A stretch of 64,000 nucleotides of DNA from Shigella phage Sf13. Made by a program: the position numbers and the translations under genes. The stretch lies in sequence record MF158040. One strand, given 5' to 3'. Under the pieces are notes generated by a model. It ran no database searches, had not been told where the DNA came from, and saw nothing but the letters and a program-made list of their open reading frames with translations. Positions within the stretch are counted from its first letter, which is position 1, and each line of letters begins with the position of its first letter. This document shows, piece by piece, positions 1,134 to 41,232 of this stretch.

Positions 1134-2486
1134 TTATTCGTAAGCCACTGTGCCTTTCAAGTCAACATCCAAGATAGCCCCTGCAAGAATACCGTGGAAG
1201 GTAATGTCTTTCAGGATACGTGCTTTCTTATCTGCCAATGCAACTTGTGAGGCTTTAGGAACAGTAACGGTGTAAGTTGACAAAAAGTTTCTGTTAACTG
1301 CTCGCTGAAGAGATGTTTCAATGACCTGACGAATACGGGTAATACCAGTATCATCATAAGTAATCTTACCACCCTTCTGATTAATTAGCAAGTCTCTCAG
1401 AGATGTTTTCAAATCAGATTCAAGCCAATCAACACCACGTACAATATCAATCCATTCACCACCAGAAGTGATACCTCTGCGCACTACAGGAACCCCACCA
1501 TCAAGGTCAATGAAGTTACAGCTACGGGTATCCAAAGCTGACTTCTGAATGCTTGTCAGTGGTCTCTGGTTAGCAGGTTGTAGGGATGCTGCAACACCAG
1601 TTAACTGAGCGTTACCCCAAGCAATTGAACCTGCATCGTATGGAGCACCATATGCAATGTAAGCCATTTCTGGGTAGTCAAACTCGGCTGTGTGATGCCA
1701 CAAGCAAACTGTACGAGTGTACTTGCTCTTAGCTAACTGTGCCGGAACATCTGTTGCAGAGGTCAAATCAGTGCCTTGCAGAGCCTTAACGTCAGCATTA
1801 GCTGTGAAGAAAATCTTCTTACGAGCCTGAATCTCTGAAGCCATTGCCAAGACAAACTGTTGAGTTCTGTCTTCTGCTGAGATGAAGTACCAATCTGTTG
1901 AATATGTTTCAATGGATGCCAGAGCAGCGGAAGCCGTGTCAGCAGTTGTTGCTGCAATAGACGTTGTAGGTGTAATAGATGTTACTTTTACGAAGTCATT
2001 ATCACCAGCTTTAGTAATAATCATCGTCGCAGAAGCACCAGTACCTGTTACACTAGCATTAACACCATCTTTAATTGTTGGGCTTGCTTCAATCTGTGAT
2101 TTAAACTCATTCAAGACAATAAGTGCTGTGTCGTTTTCTTTTGCAGTGTATTGGAATGGCTGAGAAACACCACCACCGATAGCAACTGTCAATGAATATT
2201 CACTTCCTTCAGCCACTGTGTCAGGAATAGAAACAGTATATTGCATAGTTCTTCTACCAATATACAGTTGAGTTACTTTTGGAGTTTGGCTCCATAGCTG
2301 TTTTGCAGCTTTATACGCAGCAGTACTTTCATCAAAGTCTTCAGCTACTTCTGTTAATGAAGTATAACCACGGATTCTTTCTTCAAAGTTATCTGTTGAA
2401 GCAAGGAATAATGGTAAACCAAAACCTTCTCTTGTAGTTCCTGCTGTGTTCAATGTAATATCTACATTAACAATTGGATTCCACAT
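1134..2486 (-). CDS. tail sheath protein (450 aa)
   Basis: ORF track; large structural ORF upstream of tube-like ORF; ATG start verified. Confidence 0.55.
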   Translation of the reverse strand: MWNPIVNVDITLNTAGTTREGFGLPLFLASTDNFEERIRGYTSLTEVAEDFDESTAAYKAAKQLWSQTPKVTQLYIGRRTMQYTVSIPDTVAEGSEYSLTVAIGGGVSQPFQYTAKENDTALIVLNEFKSQIEASPTIKDGVNASVTGTGASATMIITKAGDNDFVKVTSITPTTSIAATTADTASAALASIETYSTDWYFISAEDRTQQFVLAMASEIQARKKIFFTANADVKALQGTDLTSATDVPAQLAKSKYTRTVCLWHHTAEFDYPEMAYIAYGAPYDAGSIAWGNAQLTGVAASLQPANQRPLTSIQKSALDTRSCNFIDLDGGVPVVRRGITSGGEWIDIVRGVDWLESDLKTSLRDLLINQKGGKITYDDTGITRIRQVIETSLQRAVNRNFLSTYTVTVPKASQVALADKKARILKDITFHGILAGAILDVDLKGTVAYE

Positions 2487-3086
2487 TTATTTTACCCCTT
2501 TGGAGTCTACATCTAGATGGATAGTATATTCTGGTGGCTCCTGTCCTTCCTCATAAACCAATTCACCATCCACAATGATACGCTCGATAATACTTCCACG
2601 CTCATCTTTTAATACTGAATTTTTTACAAGGGTTACAACAAGAGGTGCAGAATTTTCAAAATCTGTGTTGAGATAAGTATAATCATTCGGGATAGCCCCT
2701 GTATCAAGTACTGAAGCACCTGTCATGTCAGCTAGATAATCTCTTGTAGTACTCATCTCTAATCTTTGTTTTAGCTCAAGCATAATACTGTGAGCACCTT
2801 TACCATTTACAGTAATCAGTACAGGAATCTGAAAAGCAATTCTATAACAAACTACATCATCTTCCACGAACTTATCAAGAACCCAACCATAAGGTGTGGT
2901 AGCATCTTGACAGTATACTGTAATAAAAGGCTGGTCTGGTTTCAGACCTTTATCATTGGAATTATCTGAAGGGTAAGCCCTAATAACATTTGGCCTGTTA
3001 TTCTTGTCTCTCGCTAAACGGTGACCAATAACATCAACCAAAACTCGGACAATACCTTTCTCAAGTTCTGCTGTTTCTAACTGCAT
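2487..3086 (-). CDS. virion structural protein (tail completion/neck candidate)
   Basis: ORF track; ATG start; in morphogenesis gene string between head and sheath genes. Confidence 0.4.
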   Translation of the reverse strand: MQLETAELEKGIVRVLVDVIGHRLARDKNNRPNVIRAYPSDNSNDKGLKPDQPFITVYCQDATTPYGWVLDKFVEDDVVCYRIAFQIPVLITVNGKGAHSIMLELKQRLEMSTTRDYLADMTGASVLDTGAIPNDYTYLNTDFENSAPLVVTLVKNSVLKDERGSIIERIIVDGELVYEEGQEPPEYTIHLDVDSKGVK

Positions 3087-3462
3087 TCATCTTATCCCTT
3101 CTAATAATGATATACTCATAATGGGATGTGTGAGCTAATTGTTCAGACCAATCCATTGTCATAAAGACTTCGTATTCGTGTCCCTTAATCATGACAATAT
3201 CAGCTTCAGTCCAATCAACATCATCAGACGTTCTTAACTCAGCTACAGTGAAAAGGATTCTTGTATCTGTCAGTCTGATACCTTCAGGTAAAACAATCTG
3301 TGTACCATTCTTTACAGAACCCTTAATATAAGGTTGAATATTACCTTTGCAGTTAATTGATACAATATCCTGTGAAGCTACCCAATCACCATCTTCATTG
3401 TAATGACCATCTTCAGATACCTTTCTTTTAACTACAAAGCTGTGTCTATTTAAGAGTCTCAT
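3061..3462 (-). CDS. virion structural protein (hypothetical)
   Basis: ORF track; ATGA start/stop overlap with upstream gene suggests translational coupling. Confidence 0.4.
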   Translation of the reverse strand: MRLLNRHSFVVKRKVSEDGHYNEDGDWVASQDIVSINCKGNIQPYIKGSVKNGTQIVLPEGIRLTDTRILFTVAELRTSDDVDWTEADIVMIKGHEYEVFMTMDWSEQLAHTSHYEYIIIRRDKMNAVRNSRT

Positions 3463-3941: not shown

Positions 3942-4390
3942 TATTCATCTCGCTCGATAATAAATACACCATTGACACGTTCACAGTAATCTCTACCGTA
4001 GTATCTAACAGCATCGCCATATTCAGTATATTTCTTGACAGAGCAAGGATTTTGACGACGCATGTCAATATCACACTGGTTAATACCACCCGCATAAGGG
4101 AGGCCACTAACAGAGCTTTTAACTAGGTCGTCATAGACAGCTTTCAGAGATTTGAATCTGGAAGAGTTTCGTAAATAAACACCACCAACTTTCTCATCTC
4201 CCATCTTGGCTACTTGAAAGAGTAAATATTTAAGAGCTTTGATGGCTGCTTTCTTTTCATCCTTTCCAGATTCTTGGTAGAACCACTCTAGCACCGATTG
4301 GTCAATGAGGATTTCATTGTTGTCAGTATCGGTGCAGAGGATTCGAACTCTATCAAGAGGGTTATTAGCGGGGTCGCCTGTATAACACAT
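3941..4390 (-). CDS. head completion/connector candidate (hypothetical)
   Basis: ORF track; immediately downstream of major capsid gene. Confidence 0.4.
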   Translation of the reverse strand: MCYTGDPANNPLDRVRILCTDTDNNEILIDQSVLEWFYQESGKDEKKAAIKALKYLLFQVAKMGDEKVGGVYLRNSSRFKSLKAVYDDLVKSSVSGLPYAGGINQCDIDMRRQNPCSVKKYTEYGDAVRYYGRDYCERVNGVFIIERDE

Positions 4391-4412
4391 TTATAACCCT
4401 CCTTTCAAGTTA

Positions 4413-5516
4413 TTACTCAGCGTCTGAACGAACGTCAACAAGCAGTTGAGGACGTGTGCAGTATGGCAGCATGTAAGAGTGGGCTTCGAAGTCAATACCT
4501 TCGTCACGGTCTTTCTCATATTCGAACACATACAGTTCCTGACCCAGAGTGTTTGCATAACCCATCTTAGGACATGGAGCGTAAGCAACTTCGAAGATGT
4601 TGTTAGCTTCACCCAACATTGCTACGTTAGGGAATGCGTGACCTACACCAACATTAGTATCAGATACACCATCAATGCTAACCAGAGTATGAGTCTTGCC
4701 ACGCTTGTCTTTGAACTTACCGTTGTACTGTACGAATACAACACCACCGTAGTAGAAACGGTTCATGTGAGCCTGAACACCGTCAGTACCACCAGTTCTC
4801 AGAGAACCAGTAATCTGTTGCCAAGCCAGCGGAGTCTGTTGTGCAAGGTATGCGTCACGAATCTTAGGATGCTTGATAAGCTTGCTGAAGAAAGTTCTGT
4901 CAACAACGATGTGAATTTCTTCACCGTTGATTACAGTACCCGTCTTAGCTTCATCTTCCATGTGCATACGCAGGTCTTCGATGTGTGCATCGATATCAGA
5001 GTTCGGGTTGTCCAAGTCGAAGTAGATAGTCTTCTTAGTTACATCAAACTGCTTGTACAGGTCTGCGTACAGAACACCGTTAGCGTCGATAACTTTACCC
5101 TTCAGAGCTTGCATAAACAAGAACTCACGAGTAATATCAAACTTGGTACGAATCTTCATCAGCTTCTTAGCACGTACAACTGCTTCAGTAGTCAGTTCAT
5201 TTGCAGTGCCTGGCTGACGAACACCCTGAATCTCATCAGGAGTGATGCTTTCAACTTCCTTGAAGTACATCATCGGGAAGCTAATCTGACGAACACGCTC
5301 AGGAGCGCTAGTCTCAGCTTTACGGCTGGTACGGTCTACCGCATCCAGTAAGCTGATATCCCAATCAGTCAAGTCCATCAGGAAAGTAGTCTGTGTTTGT
5401 GGAGCAGAACGGAACAGTCCCAGACCAGAGATATATCCGTAAGTATTTGGAATAGACTGGACTTCACCAGTTAAGTCAGCAAGGAAAAATCTGCTTTTTT
5501 CAGAATTAGTCAACAT
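4413..5516 (-). CDS. major capsid protein (367 aa)
   Basis: ORF track; size and position downstream of protease/scaffold and decoration-like gene; ATG start. Confidence 0.55.
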   Translation of the reverse strand: MLTNSEKSRFFLADLTGEVQSIPNTYGYISGLGLFRSAPQTQTTFLMDLTDWDISLLDAVDRTSRKAETSAPERVRQISFPMMYFKEVESITPDEIQGVRQPGTANELTTEAVVRAKKLMKIRTKFDITREFLFMQALKGKVIDANGVLYADLYKQFDVTKKTIYFDLDNPNSDIDAHIEDLRMHMEDEAKTGTVINGEEIHIVVDRTFFSKLIKHPKIRDAYLAQQTPLAWQQITGSLRTGGTDGVQAHMNRFYYGGVVFVQYNGKFKDKRGKTHTLVSIDGVSDTNVGVGHAFPNVAMLGEANNIFEVAYAPCPKMGYANTLGQELYVFEYEKDRDEGIDFEAHSYMLPYCTRPQLLVDVRSDAE

Positions 5517-16512: not shown

Positions 16513-17928
16513 TTACCAATCGTAGCGTTCAACCATTACTGCTTTGAGCATTACGCTGATAGGGTCAAACTTCTCACCACCAAGCAAAGCTTTTAAAGTG
16601 GCTGGAGAGAAACCAGATACCATTGCTACACCGTTATCCTTTACAGACACTTCGCAAGTACCATTACGGTTTGCTAAGTACCAGAATACCAGTTGTGGCA
16701 TCTCATATCCAGCTTTCTTGTACTTTTCTTGAATTGCTTCAAAGTTAGTACGACCATCTGCTCCATCAACCTGATTAAACTGCATATCAGAGAAGATGAT
16801 AAGCTTACTAGGCATCTCTTTCTGAGTCAAGTTGTTTTTAACACCAATCTCAAGGATTCTTGCAAAAGCAGCTTGTAGGTCAGTTGAACCATACTCTACA
16901 TGACTCTTCACTTGACGTAAGCGAGTCTGTAAATCACCACTCAATGTGATGAAGTGAGGTCTGCTAGAGTAAACCATCAATTCATCTTTAAAGCAACCTG
17001 TATTACGTTCTGAAACGTACAGGGCTAAAGATACACCAATGTCTAGCGCTGTAACAGAACCATGTCGCTCCCAAGTCATAGATGAAGATACATCTGCCAT
17101 GCACAGAATGTTTTCACCATCTTTCATCCAGTTTGGTAAAGCTTTCCACTGCTCATTTGCAACGGTTGCATTACCATAGCCAACTGACTTTGTAATGTCG
17201 TAAGGGTAGACTGCACCAGCATTAATCTTTGTCTCACCTTTAGTCAGTGCTGCAATGTATGCTGCATAACGCTCACCATCTTTACGACTAAAGAGTTTTT
17301 GATAACGTGCAGCAGCCAGTGAAGGAAGCTTGCTGTAATCAATTTCTCCGAACTCATTTGCTGAAATCTTTTGTTCAACAGTATCAGACAGTGCTGACAG
17401 AAGAACTCGATACTGCTTCTCTGAAAGATTTGCAAACTTACAGAAACGACGAACAAAACGCATGTGTCGTGATTTTACTCGTGGTAACCATTTTGCTGCT
17501 AGAGCCGATGTTGCAGGGTCTAACAGTGCAGCTTCTAAATGCTTGAAAGCATCTGTTTCGTAACGTGTACCAACAAAGATTTTAAAGTCGTCATAACGAC
17601 CTAAATCAGAAACCTTGTCCATGATACGTAACACTTGGAACTCATCAAGAATCCCGTCAGAGATTGCTTTAGTAAGAGTATAACGGAACGCTTTACGCTC
17701 ACCCATACCTTCTCGTGCATCTCGCATATGTAACAGGATTCGAACTGCTACATCAATATCTTCTCGCATTGCCTTGTAAAACAAGTTTGGAAGAACTTCT
17801 ACGTTTGTTCTGCTTGAACCAGCAGCTTTGTAGAAATCTACCAGTGCAGACATTGAAGAGGTGTGGTTAACAGCACCGTTTTCAGTTAAACCTGCATGTA
17901 AATGCGAGTGTTTAAATAATTCGCTCAT
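16513..17928 (-). CDS. DUF2828-like protein with C-terminal von Willebrand factor A (vWA/MIDAS) domain, 471 aa
   Basis: N-terminal TENGAV...ALVDFY motif that I recall as DUF2828-like; C-terminal DVSSSM (DxSxS MIDAS) motif; ATG start verified. Confidence 0.55.
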   Translation of the reverse strand: MSELFKHSHLHAGLTENGAVNHTSSMSALVDFYKAAGSSRTNVEVLPNLFYKAMREDIDVAVRILLHMRDAREGMGERKAFRYTLTKAISDGILDEFQVLRIMDKVSDLGRYDDFKIFVGTRYETDAFKHLEAALLDPATSALAAKWLPRVKSRHMRFVRRFCKFANLSEKQYRVLLSALSDTVEQKISANEFGEIDYSKLPSLAAARYQKLFSRKDGERYAAYIAALTKGETKINAGAVYPYDITKSVGYGNATVANEQWKALPNWMKDGENILCMADVSSSMTWERHGSVTALDIGVSLALYVSERNTGCFKDELMVYSSRPHFITLSGDLQTRLRQVKSHVEYGSTDLQAAFARILEIGVKNNLTQKEMPSKLIIFSDMQFNQVDGADGRTNFEAIQEKYKKAGYEMPQLVFWYLANRNGTCEVSVKDNGVAMVSGFSPATLKALLGGEKFDPISVMLKAVMVERYDW

Positions 17929-19584: not shown

Positions 19585-19591
19585 GTTTTAT

Positions 19592-19613
19592 GGGGCGAAA
19601 GCCCCTTTTATTT
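19592..19613 (+). terminator. rho-independent terminator (plus strand)
   Basis: GGGGCGAAAGCCCC hairpin followed by TTTTATTT. Confidence 0.55.
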
Positions 19614-19627
19614 GTTAAGGATAGATA

Positions 19628-19996
19628 ATGAAGGCAAAGAGTGGAAAAGACTTTTATTGCTTCCTACAATCTTATGTCCAAAGTGTTCAAGAAGGTGACA
19701 GGTATAATCTTGATGATGTACTTCCGACACCCTTAACATGGCGTGATAGCAAATGGCCTGAGAAGGATATCAACCCTACCGAAACATATTTCGAATACAC
19801 ACCTAAAATTCCTCTACCAGATACTGAAGAACTTCTTTACCCAATGTTTCATATCGTTGGTCTTGGTACATTTTTGATGGATATTCAATATGTGATGGGT
19901 AAAGGCTATAAGATTGACGGAGTTGTTGTAGGTGATGTTTCACCGCAGCACAAAGGTTATTTTAGACTAAATGCAAGATTAGAGGCTAAGAAATGA
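19628..19996 (+). CDS. hypothetical protein (122 aa); paralog of N-terminal domain of next gene
   Basis: ORF track; alignable to first ~120 aa of 19993..20877 (shared pattern FxxxVxxVxxGxRY ... W). Confidence 0.5.
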   Translation: MKAKSGKDFYCFLQSYVQSVQEGDRYNLDDVLPTPLTWRDSKWPEKDINPTETYFEYTPKIPLPDTEELLYPMFHIVGLGTFLMDIQYVMGKGYKIDGVVVGDVSPQHKGYFRLNARLEAKK

Positions 19997-20877
19997 TTAA
20001 AGCAAAGACATATCCAGATTTTAAAGAGTTCGTTAAAGACTTTGTAGCGAATGTTAAAGCTGGCAAAAGATACGACTTCAGAAAGTATCAAGAGGCCGTT
20101 CTGCCTCTGACATATAGCTCACCGTGGCCTGAGTCTGATATTCCAGAAGTTACTGACTTCAATTACACACCAGACTACACAGTTCCATTTAGTGAAGAAC
20201 TTTTATATTCAGTTGGTGCTCAGATGAGGACTGCTGACTTCTTCATGGACTTGCAGTATGCAATCATCAATGGGAAGGATGTTGACACAGTTTATTGTGA
20301 ATGGTTGGCAAGGGTTAAACCTTTCTCCATGCTTAATGCAAAGTTGAAGGATGCAATCACACCTCCAGTTATTACACAGCAGCCAACTGACCAAACTGTT
20401 AACGAGGGTGGAACACTTACACTTTCAGTTGTTGCTACTGGTGCAACTGGTTATCAGTGGAAGAAAGGTGCATCAAACATCTCTGGAGCAACCTCTGCAA
20501 CATATACTAAGAATGGCGTAGTCCCTACTGATGCTGGCGCATACACCTGTGTAGTTTCTGGTGAAGGTGGCTCAAGTGTTAATTCCAACGCTGCCACAGT
20601 AACTGTGAATGCACTGCCTGTGATTACACAGCAACCTACTAACCAAGAGATTACAGAGGGAGATACACTCACCCTTAGCATCGTAGCTACTGGTGCAACT
20701 GGTTATCAGTGGAAGAAAGATGATGTAGATATCCCTTCAGCAACATCTGCAACATATGAAAAGACACCGACTTCTAAAGCTGATGATGAAGGTACTTACT
20801 CTTGTGTTGTAACTGGTGTAGGTGGCTCAATCACATCCCAATCTGCCAAGGTGGTTATTAACGCAGTAGGAGGTTGA
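19993..20877 (+). CDS. protein with two tandem Ig-like repeats (294 aa)
   Basis: Two ~90-aa repeats (ITQQPT..EG.TLTLS.VATGATGYQWKK...Y.CVV.G.GGS) typical of Ig-like domains on phage virion surface proteins. Confidence 0.55.
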   Translation: MIKAKTYPDFKEFVKDFVANVKAGKRYDFRKYQEAVLPLTYSSPWPESDIPEVTDFNYTPDYTVPFSEELLYSVGAQMRTADFFMDLQYAIINGKDVDTVYCEWLARVKPFSMLNAKLKDAITPPVITQQPTDQTVNEGGTLTLSVVATGATGYQWKKGASNISGATSATYTKNGVVPTDAGAYTCVVSGEGGSSVNSNAATVTVNALPVITQQPTNQEITEGDTLTLSIVATGATGYQWKKDDVDIPSATSATYEKTPTSKADDEGTYSCVVTGVGGSITSQSAKVVINAVGG

Positions 20878-20879
20878 TA

Positions 20880-21344
20880 ATGCAACTCTCAAGTAAAGGC
20901 TTAGAAGCCATTAAGTTCTTTGAAGGGCTTCGTTTAGAAGCCTATAAAGACTCTGCTGGAATCCCTACAATTGGTTATGGTACAATTCGTATCAACGGAA
21001 GACCTGTTACGATGGGGATGAAGATTACTGCCGAGCAAGCTGAACAATATCTCCTTGCAGATGTTGAGAACTATGTAGGTGCAGTAAACAGAGCAATTAA
21101 GGTTCCAACTACGCAGAACGAATTTGACGCACTTGTTGTAGAGACTTACAACATTGGCATCGGTGCTATGCAGGATTCAACTTTTATCAAGCGTCACAAT
21201 GCTGGTAACAAAGCTGGTTGTGCAGAAGCTATGCAGTGGTGGAACAAGATTACAGTGAATGGTCAAAAAGTAACTTCCAAGGGTCTACAAAATAGACGTA
21301 GTTTGGAAGCCAAGATTTACCTTGACGCTGTTTATCCAAAATAG
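20880..21344 (+). CDS. lysozyme/endolysin (GH24 T4-lysozyme-like)
   Basis: Catalytic motif FEGLRLEAYKDSAGIPTIGYG (E...D...T); ATG with AGGAGG RBS; track start is TTG 2 codons upstream. Confidence 0.7.
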   Translation: MQLSSKGLEAIKFFEGLRLEAYKDSAGIPTIGYGTIRINGRPVTMGMKITAEQAEQYLLADVENYVGAVNRAIKVPTTQNEFDALVVETYNIGIGAMQDSTFIKRHNAGNKAGCAEAMQWWNKITVNGQKVTSKGLQNRRSLEAKIYLDAVYPK

Positions 21345-21354
21345 TAGATTAAGA

Positions 21355-21380
21355 GGCTCCTTCGGGAGCCTTTTTTATTT
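21355..21380 (+). terminator. rho-independent terminator (plus strand)
   Basis: GGCTCCTTCGGGAGCC hairpin followed by TTTTTTATTT. Confidence 0.6.
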
Positions 21381-21394
21381 CTATGGAGAAAACT

Positions 21395-40110: not shown

Positions 40111-41232
40111 TTAAACTTCACGTTTACGCTGAGAAATCAGTTCACCAGCAGTACCTACAACTACGTGGAGTGCTTCTGAACCATCCCACTCTTTGATGAC
40201 TTCACGGCGACTATTTACAATCGCTGCAACTTCATAGCGGGAAGCTCGCATTTTCATGTCGTTGTAGTCAGTTGGTACTGAAACAACATCACGAGGATGA
40301 ACACGAACTTTCAGGATAGTGTCACCAGAGAAGCTAGTTACATAATCCCAAGCACCAACGTGCAGACCCTGAGAGCAGGTTACATGACGGTTATTATCAA
40401 CCATCCAACGTGGCATCTCTACAATGTTACCCAAATCATTTGGAACTTTGCAGGTACGAGAGTCAAACAGTTTACCACCACGAGTTGTGACTTTCTTCCA
40501 GCCGATGATATAACCTTCTTCATCAATTTCAACATCAAGGTGTGATACAAAGCCCCAAAGTTGTTCTACAGAATCTTTTGATGGGTTTTCCATCAGTTTT
40601 TCGAAGAATGCAATCAGTCGAACAAAACCATTATCACCTTTCTTCATCATATCCAGAATACGGTCTACCAGAGTTGAGCGCATCTGAACAGCACCGTAAT
40701 ACAGGTTGTCACCTTTGATGGTTACAGCACCTTGAGTGAAGTTCTCAATAGACTTGCGAATGTTCATCAGTTCAAAAGCTTTCTTGTACTCACCTGAAAC
40801 AACAGCCATTACAATATCAGTGTAGTTAGGATGAGTTGACTCAACAATCTCAGACTCTGCACCGAAAGTCATGATAACAGAATCACCAGTAATCATGTAC
40901 TCAATCTGGCTGTTATTCTGCATTGCTTCATGCAGAGCATTTACAGGTTCTGCTTTGACTGCTTCTTTAACAGCTTTTGCAACAGGTTTCTGCTTAGATA
41001 CCTTCTTAGTCGCTTTAGCTTTCTTAGCACTCTTTGCAATATCTTTCAGAGTCTTTGCAGGTTTTGCTTTGGTTTTCCCTGACAGCAGTGTTGCTTCATG
41101 ACGCTCTACAGCACGACCTACCGAACGGGTTGAAGTGTTATACTTCAGAGCAATTGCAGTTTTGGTAAGTTTACCTTCTTTAACCAGTGCATAGATTTCT
41201 GCGTCGATTTGTGCTTTAGTCTTAGTAGTCAT
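40111..41232 (-). CDS. rIIB: rIIB-like protein
   Basis: Recalled similarity to T4 rIIB (LVDRILD, ENPS, GWKKV motifs); directly downstream of rIIA-like gene. Confidence 0.6.
   Translation of the reverse strand: MTTKTKAQIDAEIYALVKEGKLTKTAIALKYNTSTRSVGRAVERHEATLLSGKTKAKPAKTLKDIAKSAKKAKATKKVSKQKPVAKAVKEAVKAEPVNALHEAMQNNSQIEYMITGDSVIMTFGAESEIVESTHPNYTDIVMAVVSGEYKKAFELMNIRKSIENFTQGAVTIKGDNLYYGAVQMRSTLVDRILDMMKKGDNGFVRLIAFFEKLMENPSKDSVEQLWGFVSHLDVEIDEEGYIIGWKKVTTRGGKLFDSRTCKVPNDLGNIVEMPRWMVDNNRHVTCSQGLHVGAWDYVTSFSGDTILKVRVHPRDVVSVPTDYNDMKMRASRYEVAAIVNSRREVIKEWDGSEALHVVVGTAGELISQRKREV

What the first reader, a model, noticed from the sequence alone, without database searches (positions are those of the whole stretch)
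19628..20877. Tandem paralogs, the second extended by two Ig-like repeats
ORF 19628..19996 aligns to the first ~120 residues of ORF 19993..20877, which then adds two ~90-aa repeats with an Ig-like signature. Ig-like domains on phage proteins usually decorate capsids or tails and bind carbohydrates; the duplicated N-terminal module suggests recent domain shuffling.
Basis: seen in the sequence. Interest (0 to 1): 0.45.

Follow-up and report, generated by a model that had tools for sequence, protein, structure and literature searches.

The report
Capsid decoration gene plus Ig-less paralog
The longer gene is an already solved, Hoc-like protein that plugs into the capsid of Felix O1-type phages and displays two Ig-like domains, and the short gene before it is an old, conserved copy of just its capsid-binding part whose role nobody has studied.

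Summary
ORF 19628..19996 (122 aa) aligns end to end with residues 1-120 of ORF 19993..20877 (294 aa): 38% identity, E 4e-18. The longer protein then carries two Ig-like repeats that are 60% identical to each other.

The window is a Mooglevirus, 99.4% identical to Shigella phage Sf17. The 294-aa protein is the ortholog of Sf14 gp20 and Bas63 Hex-Dec. This Hoc-like protein binds as a monomer at the centre of the 60 pentamer-proximal hexamers of the T=9 capsid (PDB 9C2D, 9NCF). It is a capsid protein, not a tail protein as GenBank says. Its two-Ig form in Sf17 is already published.

The duplication is not recent. Each paralog forms its own clade (bootstrap 100% and 96%) across Felixounavirus, Mooglevirus, Suspvirus and a diverged metagenomic phage. 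Both are under purifying selection.

The unstudied part is the short gene, a stand-alone capsid-binding domain:
- It has the same fold as the solved domain (TM 0.71).
- It lacks the Arg79 equivalent (invariant Gly); the Arg107 position is Gln here and variable.
- In Felix O1 it is transcribed late together with Hex-Dec.
- It is absent from the published virion proteomes and cryo-EM models.
- It is lost or fused in about 8% of related genomes.

Its function is inferred only.

The parts
19592..19615 (+). Intrinsic-terminator-like hairpin (GGGGCGAAAGCCCC plus T-run) that closes the upstream 196-aa gene. Only about 12 nt separate the end of the T-run (19615) from the start codon at 19628 (22 nt from the end of the stem), which leaves no room for a promoter.
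   Evidence: The same element is annotated as a terminator in wV8 and Mijalis and listed in the Felix O1 terminator table.
19628..19996 (+). Short paralog, 122 aa, 14.2 kDa, pI 5.6. It is a stand-alone capsid-binding-domain (CapBD) homolog with no Ig domain. Orthologs: Sf17 gp019, Sf14 gp021, Felix O1 ORF37, bas63_0125. PHROG 4463.
   Evidence: E 1.5e-13 to PDB 9c2d_S over residues 2-119. PHROG 4463, E 7e-78. AF2 model with pLDDT 72 and pTM 0.73; Foldseek finds only 9ncf_S and 9c2d_S at E <= 0.001, TM 0.71. dN/dS 0.06-0.22. G78 (codon 19859-19861) aligns with Hex-Dec R79, and Q107 with R107.
19993..20352 (+). Hex-Dec capsid-binding domain, aa 1-120, with contact arginines R79 (codon 20227-20229) and R107 (codon 20311-20313).
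   Evidence: Amino-acid sequence identical to Sf14 gp20 residues 1-120, the part modelled in PDB 9C2D chain S. The roles of R79 and R107 come from PMC11821841.
20362..20613 (+). Ig-like domain 1 of Hex-Dec (aa 124-207).
   Evidence: Pfam Ig_3 and Ig_2 matches at aa 124-205. 76-77% identical to Ig1 of wV8 and Felix O1, but only 65% to Sf14 Ig1.
20614..20877 (+). Ig-like domain 2 of Hex-Dec (aa 208-294) and the stop codon.
   Evidence: Pfam I-set match at aa 209-283. 60% identical to Ig1 by BLASTP.
20880..21344 (+). Endolysin (glycoside hydrolase family 24 lysozyme). It is the third gene between the two terminators and starts 2 nt after the Hex-Dec stop.
   Evidence: Pfam Phage_lysozyme, E 1.8e-39. 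Sf17 annotation.
21351..21384 (+). Intrinsic-terminator-like hairpin (10-bp stem plus T-run) that closes the three-gene block.
   Evidence: Annotated as a terminator in wV8 and Mijalis.
4413..5516 (-). Major capsid protein, the binding partner of Hex-Dec. It carries Asp221.
   Evidence: 367/367 residues identical to Sf14 gp34 (PDB 9c2d_A), E 7e-251. D221 is visible in the alignment.

Best explanation
Shown: the window comes from a Mooglevirus, 99.4% identical to Shigella phage Sf17. ORF 19993..20877 is its Hoc-like hexamer decoration protein, the ortholog of Sf14 gp20 and Bas63 Hex-Dec. In those solved orthologs the N-terminal ~118-residue domain (CapBD) inserts as a monomer into the centre of the pentamer-proximal hexamers of the T=9 capsid. 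Arg79 and Arg107 form salt bridges to Asp221 of the major capsid protein. Both arginines and Asp221 are present here, on identical sequences. The two Ig-like domains project outwards.

Inferred by analogy with T4 Hoc: the Ig domains mediate weak adhesion to surfaces, mucus or other particles.

Shown: ORF 19628..19996 is an old paralog consisting of the CapBD alone. It has the same length and fold. It is under purifying selection and its stop overlaps the Hex-Dec start (ATGA). In Felix O1 its transcript peaks late together with that of Hex-Dec. Both salt-bridge arginine positions have diverged: the Arg79 position is an invariant Gly, and the Arg107 position is Gln here and Gln, Arg, His or Asn in relatives. 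It was not found in published virion proteomes or cryo-EM models. It has been lost in a minority of natural isolates.

Inferred, with low certainty (about 0.3): the short protein is a non-essential, Ig-less accessory that still recognises capsid hexamers, or the Hex-Dec site, during head assembly. It would act as a transient or sub-stoichiometric competitor or placeholder that tunes where or how much Hex-Dec binds. It is probably not a stable stoichiometric virion component.
For: Identity of the 294-aa protein:
- E 4.6e-185 to 9c2d_S, with residues 1-120 identical, and E ~1e-258 to 9ncf_S.
- Structure, capsid position, contact residues and mass-spectrometry detection are described in PMC11821841 and PMC12609058.
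- The first paper states that Sf17 has the two-Ig form.
- The capsid protein in the window is 100% identical to Sf14 gp34, including D221.

Short paralog:
- Homology.
- Fold. An independent BFVD model of the identical protein agrees with mine at TM 0.94.
- Purifying selection: dN/dS 0.06-0.22, against 0.02-0.17 for the Hex-Dec CapBD.
- Conserved block of terminator, short gene, Hex-Dec, endolysin, terminator in 10 phages and a metagenomic contig.
- Felix O1 ORF36 and ORF37 are both maximally transcribed at 60 min.
- Felix O1 gp36 was found in virions at 44% coverage. gp37 is not on the list, although proteins of 9.7-13 kDa are.
- The VpaE1 text implies that gp40, the short paralog, was also not detected.
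- Both cryo-EM phages encode the short gene, yet their maps show no density on the other hexamers.
- Dispensability: a decayed pseudogene in fBSPA4 and P54, and a fusion gene in SP3_SHan-2021. In 20 of 251 records the best match is below 60% identity.
Against: Nothing tested here contradicts the Hex-Dec assignment.

For the short paralog there is no direct functional evidence.
- The virion proteomes are negative evidence only. The Felix O1 list used a cut-off of at least 25% coverage. The VpaE1 table is an image I could not read. The Sf14 paper tabulates only proteins it modelled.
- Both capsid maps were icosahedrally averaged. A monomer on the strict 3-fold hexamers would be smeared by that averaging.
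- Loss of the Arg79 equivalent and divergence at the Arg107 position argue against binding the Hex-Dec site in the same way, which weakens a simple competitor model.
- Strong conservation, such as the invariant LLYPMFHIVGLG.FLMDIQ stretch, fits a specific partner but does not say which one.
Confidence: 0.75

Rival explanations
1. The short paralog is a genuine second hexamer-centre decoration protein. It would be an Ig-less plug for the 20 facet-centre hexamers on the strict 3-fold axes, which Hex-Dec does not bind. The phage would then use two paralogs to tell two quasi-equivalent hexamer classes apart. It would have been missed because icosahedral averaging smears a monomer on a 3-fold axis and because the copy number is low.
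For: It has the same fold and size as the capsid-binding domain and is transcribed late with Hex-Dec in Felix O1. Hex-Dec leaves the 3-fold hexamers empty because two of the three Asp221 residues are shifted away from Arg79 and Arg107 there. The paralog has diverged at exactly those two positions. Both capsid maps had icosahedral symmetry imposed.
Against: Both structural papers report no density on those hexamers. The protein is absent from the Felix O1 virion list, which includes smaller proteins, and by implication from the VpaE1 list. A clade of natural phages has let the gene decay.
Confidence: 0.12
2. The short ORF is a redundant duplicate with no function of its own and is drifting toward loss.
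For: It is a pseudogene in fBSPA4 and P54 and is fused away in SP3_SHan-2021. The syntenic locus of Erwinia and Yersinia relatives has a single gene. It evolves faster than the Hex-Dec CapBD: 76% against 87% identity between Mooglevirus and Felixounavirus.
Against: dN/dS is 0.06-0.22 at synonymous distances up to saturation. 69 of 122 positions are invariant among 16 diverse orthologs. It is intact in about 92% of 251 genomes and in a lineage only 48% identical.
Confidence: 0.07
3. The short ORF matters mainly as a translational-coupling leader for Hex-Dec, and its protein product is incidental.
For: The stop/start overlap is conserved: ATGA here, and 1- to 8-nt overlaps in relatives. The Hex-Dec ribosome-binding site lies inside the 3' end of the short gene. 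That 3' end is the part retained in the fBSPA4 and P54 deletion variants.
Against: Conservation at the amino-acid level and low dN/dS along the whole ORF would not be expected for a mere leader. The deletion variants show that Hex-Dec can be encoded without an upstream translated ORF.
Confidence: 0.04
4. Both genes encode tail proteins, as GenBank, UniProt and PHROG 3995 label them.
For: Database names only. Felix O1 gp36 was called 'major tail protein' in 2010.
Against: Cryo-EM places the ortholog's N-terminal domain on capsid hexamers in two phages. The 'tail' label predates those structures.
Confidence: 0.01

Closest known systems
Sf14 gp20 and Bas63 Hex-Dec, the Ounavirinae hexamer decoration protein (PDB 9C2D/9C3A chain S, 9NCF chain S)
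   Same: The 294-aa protein is an ortholog. Its CapBD is identical in amino-acid sequence to Sf14 gp20 residues 1-120. It has the same N-terminal CapBD followed by tandem Ig domains, the same locus upstream of the endolysin, and the same capsid-protein partner carrying Asp221. The short paralog shares only the CapBD (38% identity, TM 0.71).
   Different: It has two Ig domains, against three in Sf14 and four in Bas63. That difference is already noted for Sf17 in PMC11821841. The Ig cassette is only 71.5% identical in DNA to that of Sf14. The short paralog has no Ig domain, has Gly for Arg79 and Gln for Arg107, and is not seen in either structure.
[quoted passage not shown]
   Same: A monomer at hexamer centres, with a string of Ig-like domains projecting from a small capsid-binding domain. 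Hoc is dispensable (my knowledge of T4). The PHROG 'Hoc-like head decoration' families match the Ig region.
   Different: The domain order is reversed: the Hoc capsid-binding domain is C-terminal. The Ounavirinae CapBD is larger, topologically distinct and pseudo-C2-symmetric. There is no sequence similarity outside the Ig domains. T4 has no Ig-less paralog, as far as I know.
T5 pb10 decoration protein
   Same: [quoted passage not shown] The pb10 Ig domain (PDB 5LXK) matches at E 3e-9.
   Different: The similarity lies in the Ig region (query residues 133-207). It has one Ig domain and no tandem paralog. From my memory, not tested here: the isolated pb10 N-terminal domain binds T5 capsids on its own, which makes a stand-alone CapBD plausible as a binder.
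PHROG 4463 (function unknown)
   Same: The short paralog is a full-length member, E 7e-78.
   Different: The family has no annotation. Its link to the solved CapBD is not recorded in PHROGs or Pfam (no Pfam match).

Membership tests
Ounavirinae Hex-Dec / Sf14 gp20 family (294-aa ORF) | N-terminal capsid-binding domain homologous to the solved chain S | tested here: met
   phmmer E 4.6e-185 to 9c2d_S, with residues 1-120 identical.
Ounavirinae Hex-Dec / Sf14 gp20 family (294-aa ORF) | One or more C-terminal tandem Ig-like domains | tested here: met
   Pfam Ig_3 at 1.5e-19, Ig_2 and I-set above cut-off, two stretches. The repeats are 60% identical to each other.
Ounavirinae Hex-Dec / Sf14 gp20 family (294-aa ORF) | Contact residues Arg79 and Arg107, and Asp221 on the major capsid protein | tested here: met
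   Codons 20227-20229 and 20311-20313 are both AGG. The capsid protein is 100% identical to gp34 and has D221.
Ounavirinae Hex-Dec / Sf14 gp20 family (294-aa ORF) | Conserved locus directly upstream of the endolysin, away from the structural module | tested here: met
Ounavirinae Hex-Dec / Sf14 gp20 family (294-aa ORF) | Physically present on pentamer-proximal hexamers of the virion | not testable with these tools
   Shown for the orthologs by cryo-EM and mass spectrometry. Inferred here from the identical CapBD and capsid protein.
Ounavirinae Hex-Dec / Sf14 gp20 family (122-aa ORF) | CapBD fold | tested here: met
   E 1.5e-13 to 9c2d_S. Foldseek TM 0.71, probability 1.0, to 9ncf_S and 9c2d_S only.
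Ounavirinae Hex-Dec / Sf14 gp20 family (122-aa ORF) | Ig-like display domains | tested here: not met
   The ORF ends at residue 122, where the CapBD ends. No Pfam Ig match.
Ounavirinae Hex-Dec / Sf14 gp20 family (122-aa ORF) | Capsid-contact arginines Arg79 and Arg107 | tested here: not met
   The Arg79 position is Gly78, invariant in 16 orthologs. The Arg107 position is Gln in this window; orthologs have Gln, Arg, His or Asn there.
Ounavirinae Hex-Dec / Sf14 gp20 family (122-aa ORF) | Presence in virions | not testable with these tools
   Published virion proteomes of Felix O1 and VpaE1 do not list it. The cryo-EM papers do not mention it.
T4 Hoc family | Ig domains N-terminal and capsid-binding domain C-terminal, homologous to Hoc | tested here: not met
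   The domain order is reversed. The PHROG Hoc-like matches cover only aa 119-288, the Ig region. The CapBD has no match outside Ounavirinae-like phages.

The most novel reading that the evidence does not exclude
The short protein is the missing occupant of the 20 facet-centre hexamers on the strict 3-fold axes. Felix O1-type phages would then use two paralogous hexamer-centre proteins, one with Ig domains and one bare, to label two quasi-equivalent hexamer classes of a T=9 shell. It would have been overlooked because icosahedral averaging smears a monomer on a 3-fold axis and because only about 20 copies are present per virion.
Probability: 0.12. Interest if true: 0.6.

Novelty: new variant of a known kind. 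Interest (0 to 1): 0.3.

Why it matters
The main gene matters mostly as a correction. Hundreds of Felix O1-like genomes label this capsid decoration protein, and by transfer its short paralog, as 'tail protein'.

The short paralog is a small open question that can be tested directly. Two recent cryo-EM studies explain why Hex-Dec binds only 60 of the 80 hexamers, but neither notes that the phage also makes a bare copy of the binding domain that has diverged at the two contact arginines. Finding out whether that copy binds the remaining hexamers, competes with Hex-Dec, or acts only during assembly would show how a phage discriminates quasi-equivalent capsid sites.

It is also relevant to using Hex-Dec as a phage-display scaffold, because an endogenous competitor would limit occupancy. 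The natural fusion and pseudogene variants are ready-made genetic controls.

Tried and rejected
- The first AF2 run on the short protein used 16 near-identical orthologs. It gave pLDDT 51.6 and was discarded. A 48-sequence alignment including Hex-Dec CapBDs gave a usable model.
- Pfam has no family for either CapBD. The only match was an insignificant DUF1182 hit.
- A scan of viral contigs for the diverged short paralog P0093 found nothing. An exact-sequence look-up found its contig instead.
- I first guessed that ORF 40111..41232 was the capsid protein. It has no PDB relative. The capsid gene is 4413..5516.
- Doore et al. 2018 and 2019, which may list Sf14 or CHB7 virion mass spectrometry, are not held. 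VpaE1 Table S2 is an image. UAB_Phi87 has no proteome in PMC4837284.
- The position of the duplication relative to the Erwinia and Yersinia lineages could not be resolved (bootstrap 14-36%). I therefore claim only that it predates the split of Felixounavirus, Mooglevirus, Suspvirus and the metagenomic lineage.
- No sigma-70-like promoter lies directly upstream of the short gene.

Full report
**Observation.** Both are on the + strand, and the stop of the first overlaps the start of the second (ATGA). BLASTP aligns the short protein end to end with residues 2-119 of the long one: 38% identity, E 4e-18. The rest of the long protein is two repeats of about 85 aa that are 60% identical to each other (E 8e-32). 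They match Pfam Ig_3, Ig_2 and I-set well above the curated cut-offs.

**What the window is and what the long gene is.** The region is 99.4% identical to Shigella phage Sf17 (Ounavirinae, Mooglevirus) and is collinear with about 230 Felix O1-like genomes. The 294-aa protein matches two solved chains: Sf14 'tail protein' (9C2D/9C3A chain S, E 4.6e-185) and Bas63 'immunoglobulin-like domain protein' (9NCF chain S, E ~1e-258). Residues 1-120 are identical to Sf14 gp20.

The two papers describe this protein as follows (PMC11821841; PMC12609058):
- It is a Hoc-like decoration protein, called gp20 or Hex-Dec.
- Its N-terminal ~118-residue capsid-binding domain (CapBD) sits as a monomer in the centre of the pentamer-proximal, facet-edge hexamers of the T=9 capsid, and nowhere else.
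- Arg79 and Arg107 form salt bridges to Asp221 of the major capsid protein.
- The Ig domains are flexible and were not resolved.
- It was detected in virions by mass spectrometry.
- The number of Ig domains varies from one to four among relatives.

The Sf14 paper states explicitly that Sf13 and Sf17 have the two-Ig form. In this window both arginine codons are present (20227-20229 and 20311-20313). The capsid gene at 4413..5516 (- strand) encodes a protein 367/367 identical to Sf14 gp34, including Asp221. The binding mode can therefore be transferred with confidence. The 'tail protein' label in GenBank, UniProt and PHROG 3995 is a legacy error. Felix O1 gp36 was called 'major tail protein' in 2010.

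**The short gene.** This is the part not covered by the literature I could read. Neither structural paper mentions Sf14 gp21 or bas63_0125, a paralog, or a duplication. A full-text search found nothing else.
- *Homology and fold.* The protein belongs to PHROG 4463, function unknown (E 7e-78). It has no Pfam family. It matches only the two Hex-Dec chains in the PDB, at E 1.5e-13 and 2.5e-11 over residues 2-119. An AF2 model built on 48 sequences (pLDDT 72, pTM 0.73) finds only 9ncf_S and 9c2d_S at E <= 0.001 in a Foldseek search of the PDB (TM 0.71, probability 1.0); every other hit has E > 0.6. The model agrees at TM 0.94 with an independent BFVD model of the identical Sf15 protein.
- *Size.* Its length equals the structured part of chain S (120-122 residues). 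It is the CapBD and nothing else.
- *Conservation.* 69 of 122 positions are invariant in 16 orthologs, including a continuous LLYPMFHIVGLG.FLMDIQ block. Pairwise dN/dS is 0.06-0.22, against 0.02-0.17 for the Hex-Dec CapBD. It is a functional protein-coding gene.
- *Contact residues.* Both capsid-contact arginine positions have diverged. Arg79 aligns with an invariant Gly78. Arg107 aligns with Gln, or with Arg, His or Asn in some lineages.

**Age and distribution.** A profile search of 1.84 billion representative proteins found only 14 family members, and fold searches found relatives only in Ounavirinae-like phages. The CapBD is thus a small, lineage-restricted family.

The block of terminator, short gene, Hex-Dec, endolysin, terminator is conserved in:
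- Sf14, Sf17, Mijalis and ESh21 (Mooglevirus);
- CHB7 (Suspvirus);
- wV8, BPS17W1, CL1, Felix O1 and Bas63 (Felixounavirus);
- an 87-kb metagenomic contig whose two proteins are only 48% and 58% identical to those here.

In a neighbour-joining tree the short proteins form one clade (bootstrap 100%) and the Hex-Dec CapBDs of the same phages form another (96%). The duplication therefore predates the split of these genera and is not recent. Erwinia (Kolesnikvirus M7) and Yersinia (P778) relatives have a single gene at the same locus, a CapBD followed by a Big_2-type Ig domain. The tree does not resolve whether that state is ancestral (bootstrap 14-36%).

**Recent change elsewhere in the locus.** Against Sf14, the flanking genes are 97-99% identical in DNA and the CapBD is 95% identical. 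The Ig region is only 71.5% identical and differs by one repeat. Its Ig1 is closer to Felixounavirus Ig1 (76-77%) than to Sf14 Ig1 (65%).

**Natural variants.** In 20 of 251 phage records the best match to the short protein is below 60% identity, which means only Hex-Dec matched.
- In Salmonella phage fBSPA4 and Escherichia phage P54 the 192-nt spacer is a decayed copy of the short gene. The ATG is lost, there are frameshifts, and about 225 nt are deleted internally. The last ~70 nt, which carry the Hex-Dec ribosome-binding site, are kept.
- In Salmonella phage SP3_SHan-2021 a single 292-aa gene starts as the short paralog for 143 nt. It crosses over inside the shared TGGCCTGAAG..GATAT (WPExDI) stretch and continues as Hex-Dec. 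This is a deletion by recombination between the tandem paralogs.

The short gene is therefore dispensable for viability.

**Expression and location.** About 12 nt separate the upstream terminator's T-run from the start codon (22 nt from the stem), so there is no room for a dedicated promoter. The overlapping stop/start suggests translational coupling with Hex-Dec.

In Felix O1, ORF37 (short) and ORF36 (Hex-Dec) are both in the RT-PCR class that peaks at 60 min, together with the tail-fibre and baseplate genes. ORF35 (lysin) and ORF38 peak at 25 min.

Evidence on whether the short protein is in the virion is negative only:
- Whole-phage shotgun proteomics of Felix O1 found gp36 at 44% coverage and proteins as small as 9.7 kDa, but not gp37.
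- The VpaE1 paper implies the same for its gp40, the short paralog.
- Both phages with cryo-EM structures encode the short gene. Both papers report no density on the facet-centre hexamers.

These negatives have limits. The proteome lists used thresholds, and both capsid maps were icosahedrally averaged. A monomer on a strict 3-fold hexamer would be smeared by that averaging.

**Mechanism.** For Hex-Dec the mechanism is established in the orthologs, and the sequences involved are identical here. The CapBD plugs the hexamer centre through Arg79 and Arg107 to Asp221. The acidic Ig string (pI 4.4) is displayed outward. An adhesive or environment-sensing role is an analogy with T4 Hoc and was not tested.

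For the short protein I commit, at about 0.3, to a non-essential, late, Ig-less accessory. It would still recognise capsid hexamers, or the Hex-Dec site, during head assembly without becoming a stoichiometric virion component. Three rivals remain:
- It is a true second decoration protein on the 20 facet-centre hexamers (0.12). The divergence at exactly the two arginines that cannot reach Asp221 on those hexamers fits this reading.
- It is a redundant duplicate that is drifting toward loss (0.07).
- It is mainly a translational-coupling leader for Hex-Dec (0.04).

**Comparison and novelty.** The long gene is a member of the Hex-Dec/gp20 family; every sequence-level criterion I could test was met. 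It works like T4 Hoc and T5 pb10 but is not a Hoc homolog. The domain order is reversed, the CapBD fold is distinct, and similarity is confined to the Ig domains. The short gene shares the family's fold but fails two defining features, the Ig display domains and the contact arginines. I file it as an architectural variant, not as a decoration protein.

Overall the finding is mostly already known. Its unstudied remainder is modest but can be tested directly. Interest 0.3.

Noticed in passing
window 20353..20877, compared with L002 (Sf14) 4354..5112: The Ig cassette is a mosaic. It is 71.5% identical in DNA to Sf14, while the flanking genes are 97-99% identical and the CapBD is 95% identical. 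The breakpoint lies at the CapBD/Ig junction. Ig1 here is closer to Felixounavirus Ig1 than to Sf14 Ig1.
   Followed up: partly
L003 (Salmonella phage SP3_SHan-2021, MW296865) 2501..3379: A single chimeric gene. The first 143 nt are the short paralog and the remainder is Hex-Dec. The crossover lies inside the shared WPExDI-coding microhomology. This is a natural fusion of lobe 1 of one paralog to lobe 2 of the other.
   Followed up: yes
L004 (fBSPA4, OR711204) and L005 (vB_EcoM_P54, PV390658) 2306..2498: The short paralog is a pseudogene: the start codon is lost, there are frameshifts, and about 225 nt are deleted internally. The 3' end that carries the Hex-Dec ribosome-binding site is retained. 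Both phages have the same deletion, which suggests one ancestral event.
   Followed up: yes
L016 (Felix O1) ORF36 compared with L010 (wV8) gene 41: Felix O1 Ig2 is 85% identical to wV8 Ig2 and 87% to wV8 Ig3. This is what a hybrid left by recombination between adjacent repeats would look like, turning a three-Ig form into a two-Ig form.
   Followed up: no
window 11656..16347, - strand: A cluster of 25 tRNA genes, including two tRNA-Met, lies between the structural module and the decoration locus.
   Followed up: no
window 16513..17928, - strand: A 471-aa protein annotated in relatives as 'RNA-binding protein' (DUF2828, vWA-containing) lies directly next to the tRNA cluster. I did not examine its function.
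   Followed up: no
window 19585..19627: About 12 nt lie between the terminator's T-run and the short gene's start codon (22 nt from the stem), so the late-expressed pair must be transcribed by read-through or from a promoter inside or upstream of the 196-aa gene. In Felix O1 the upstream ORF38 peaks earlier (25 min) than ORF37 and ORF36 (60 min).
   Followed up: partly
window 20874..20880: The mechanical ORF list starts the endolysin at TTG 20874, overlapping the Hex-Dec stop. The Sf17 annotation maps to ATG 20880, 2 nt after the stop.
   Followed up: partly
public records seen: Database oddities. vB_EcoM_P54 is filed under Tequatrovirus although its locus is Felix O1-like. A 'Staphylococcus phage SA1' record carries a Felix O1-type short paralog (99% identical to VpaE1 ORF40c), which looks like a contaminated or mislabelled record.
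   Followed up: no
literature: Bas63 and Sf14 tail tip: Both cryo-EM studies report an unassigned trimeric or smeared ring density around the tail puncture apparatus. Unidentified small virion proteins therefore still exist in these phages.
   Followed up: no
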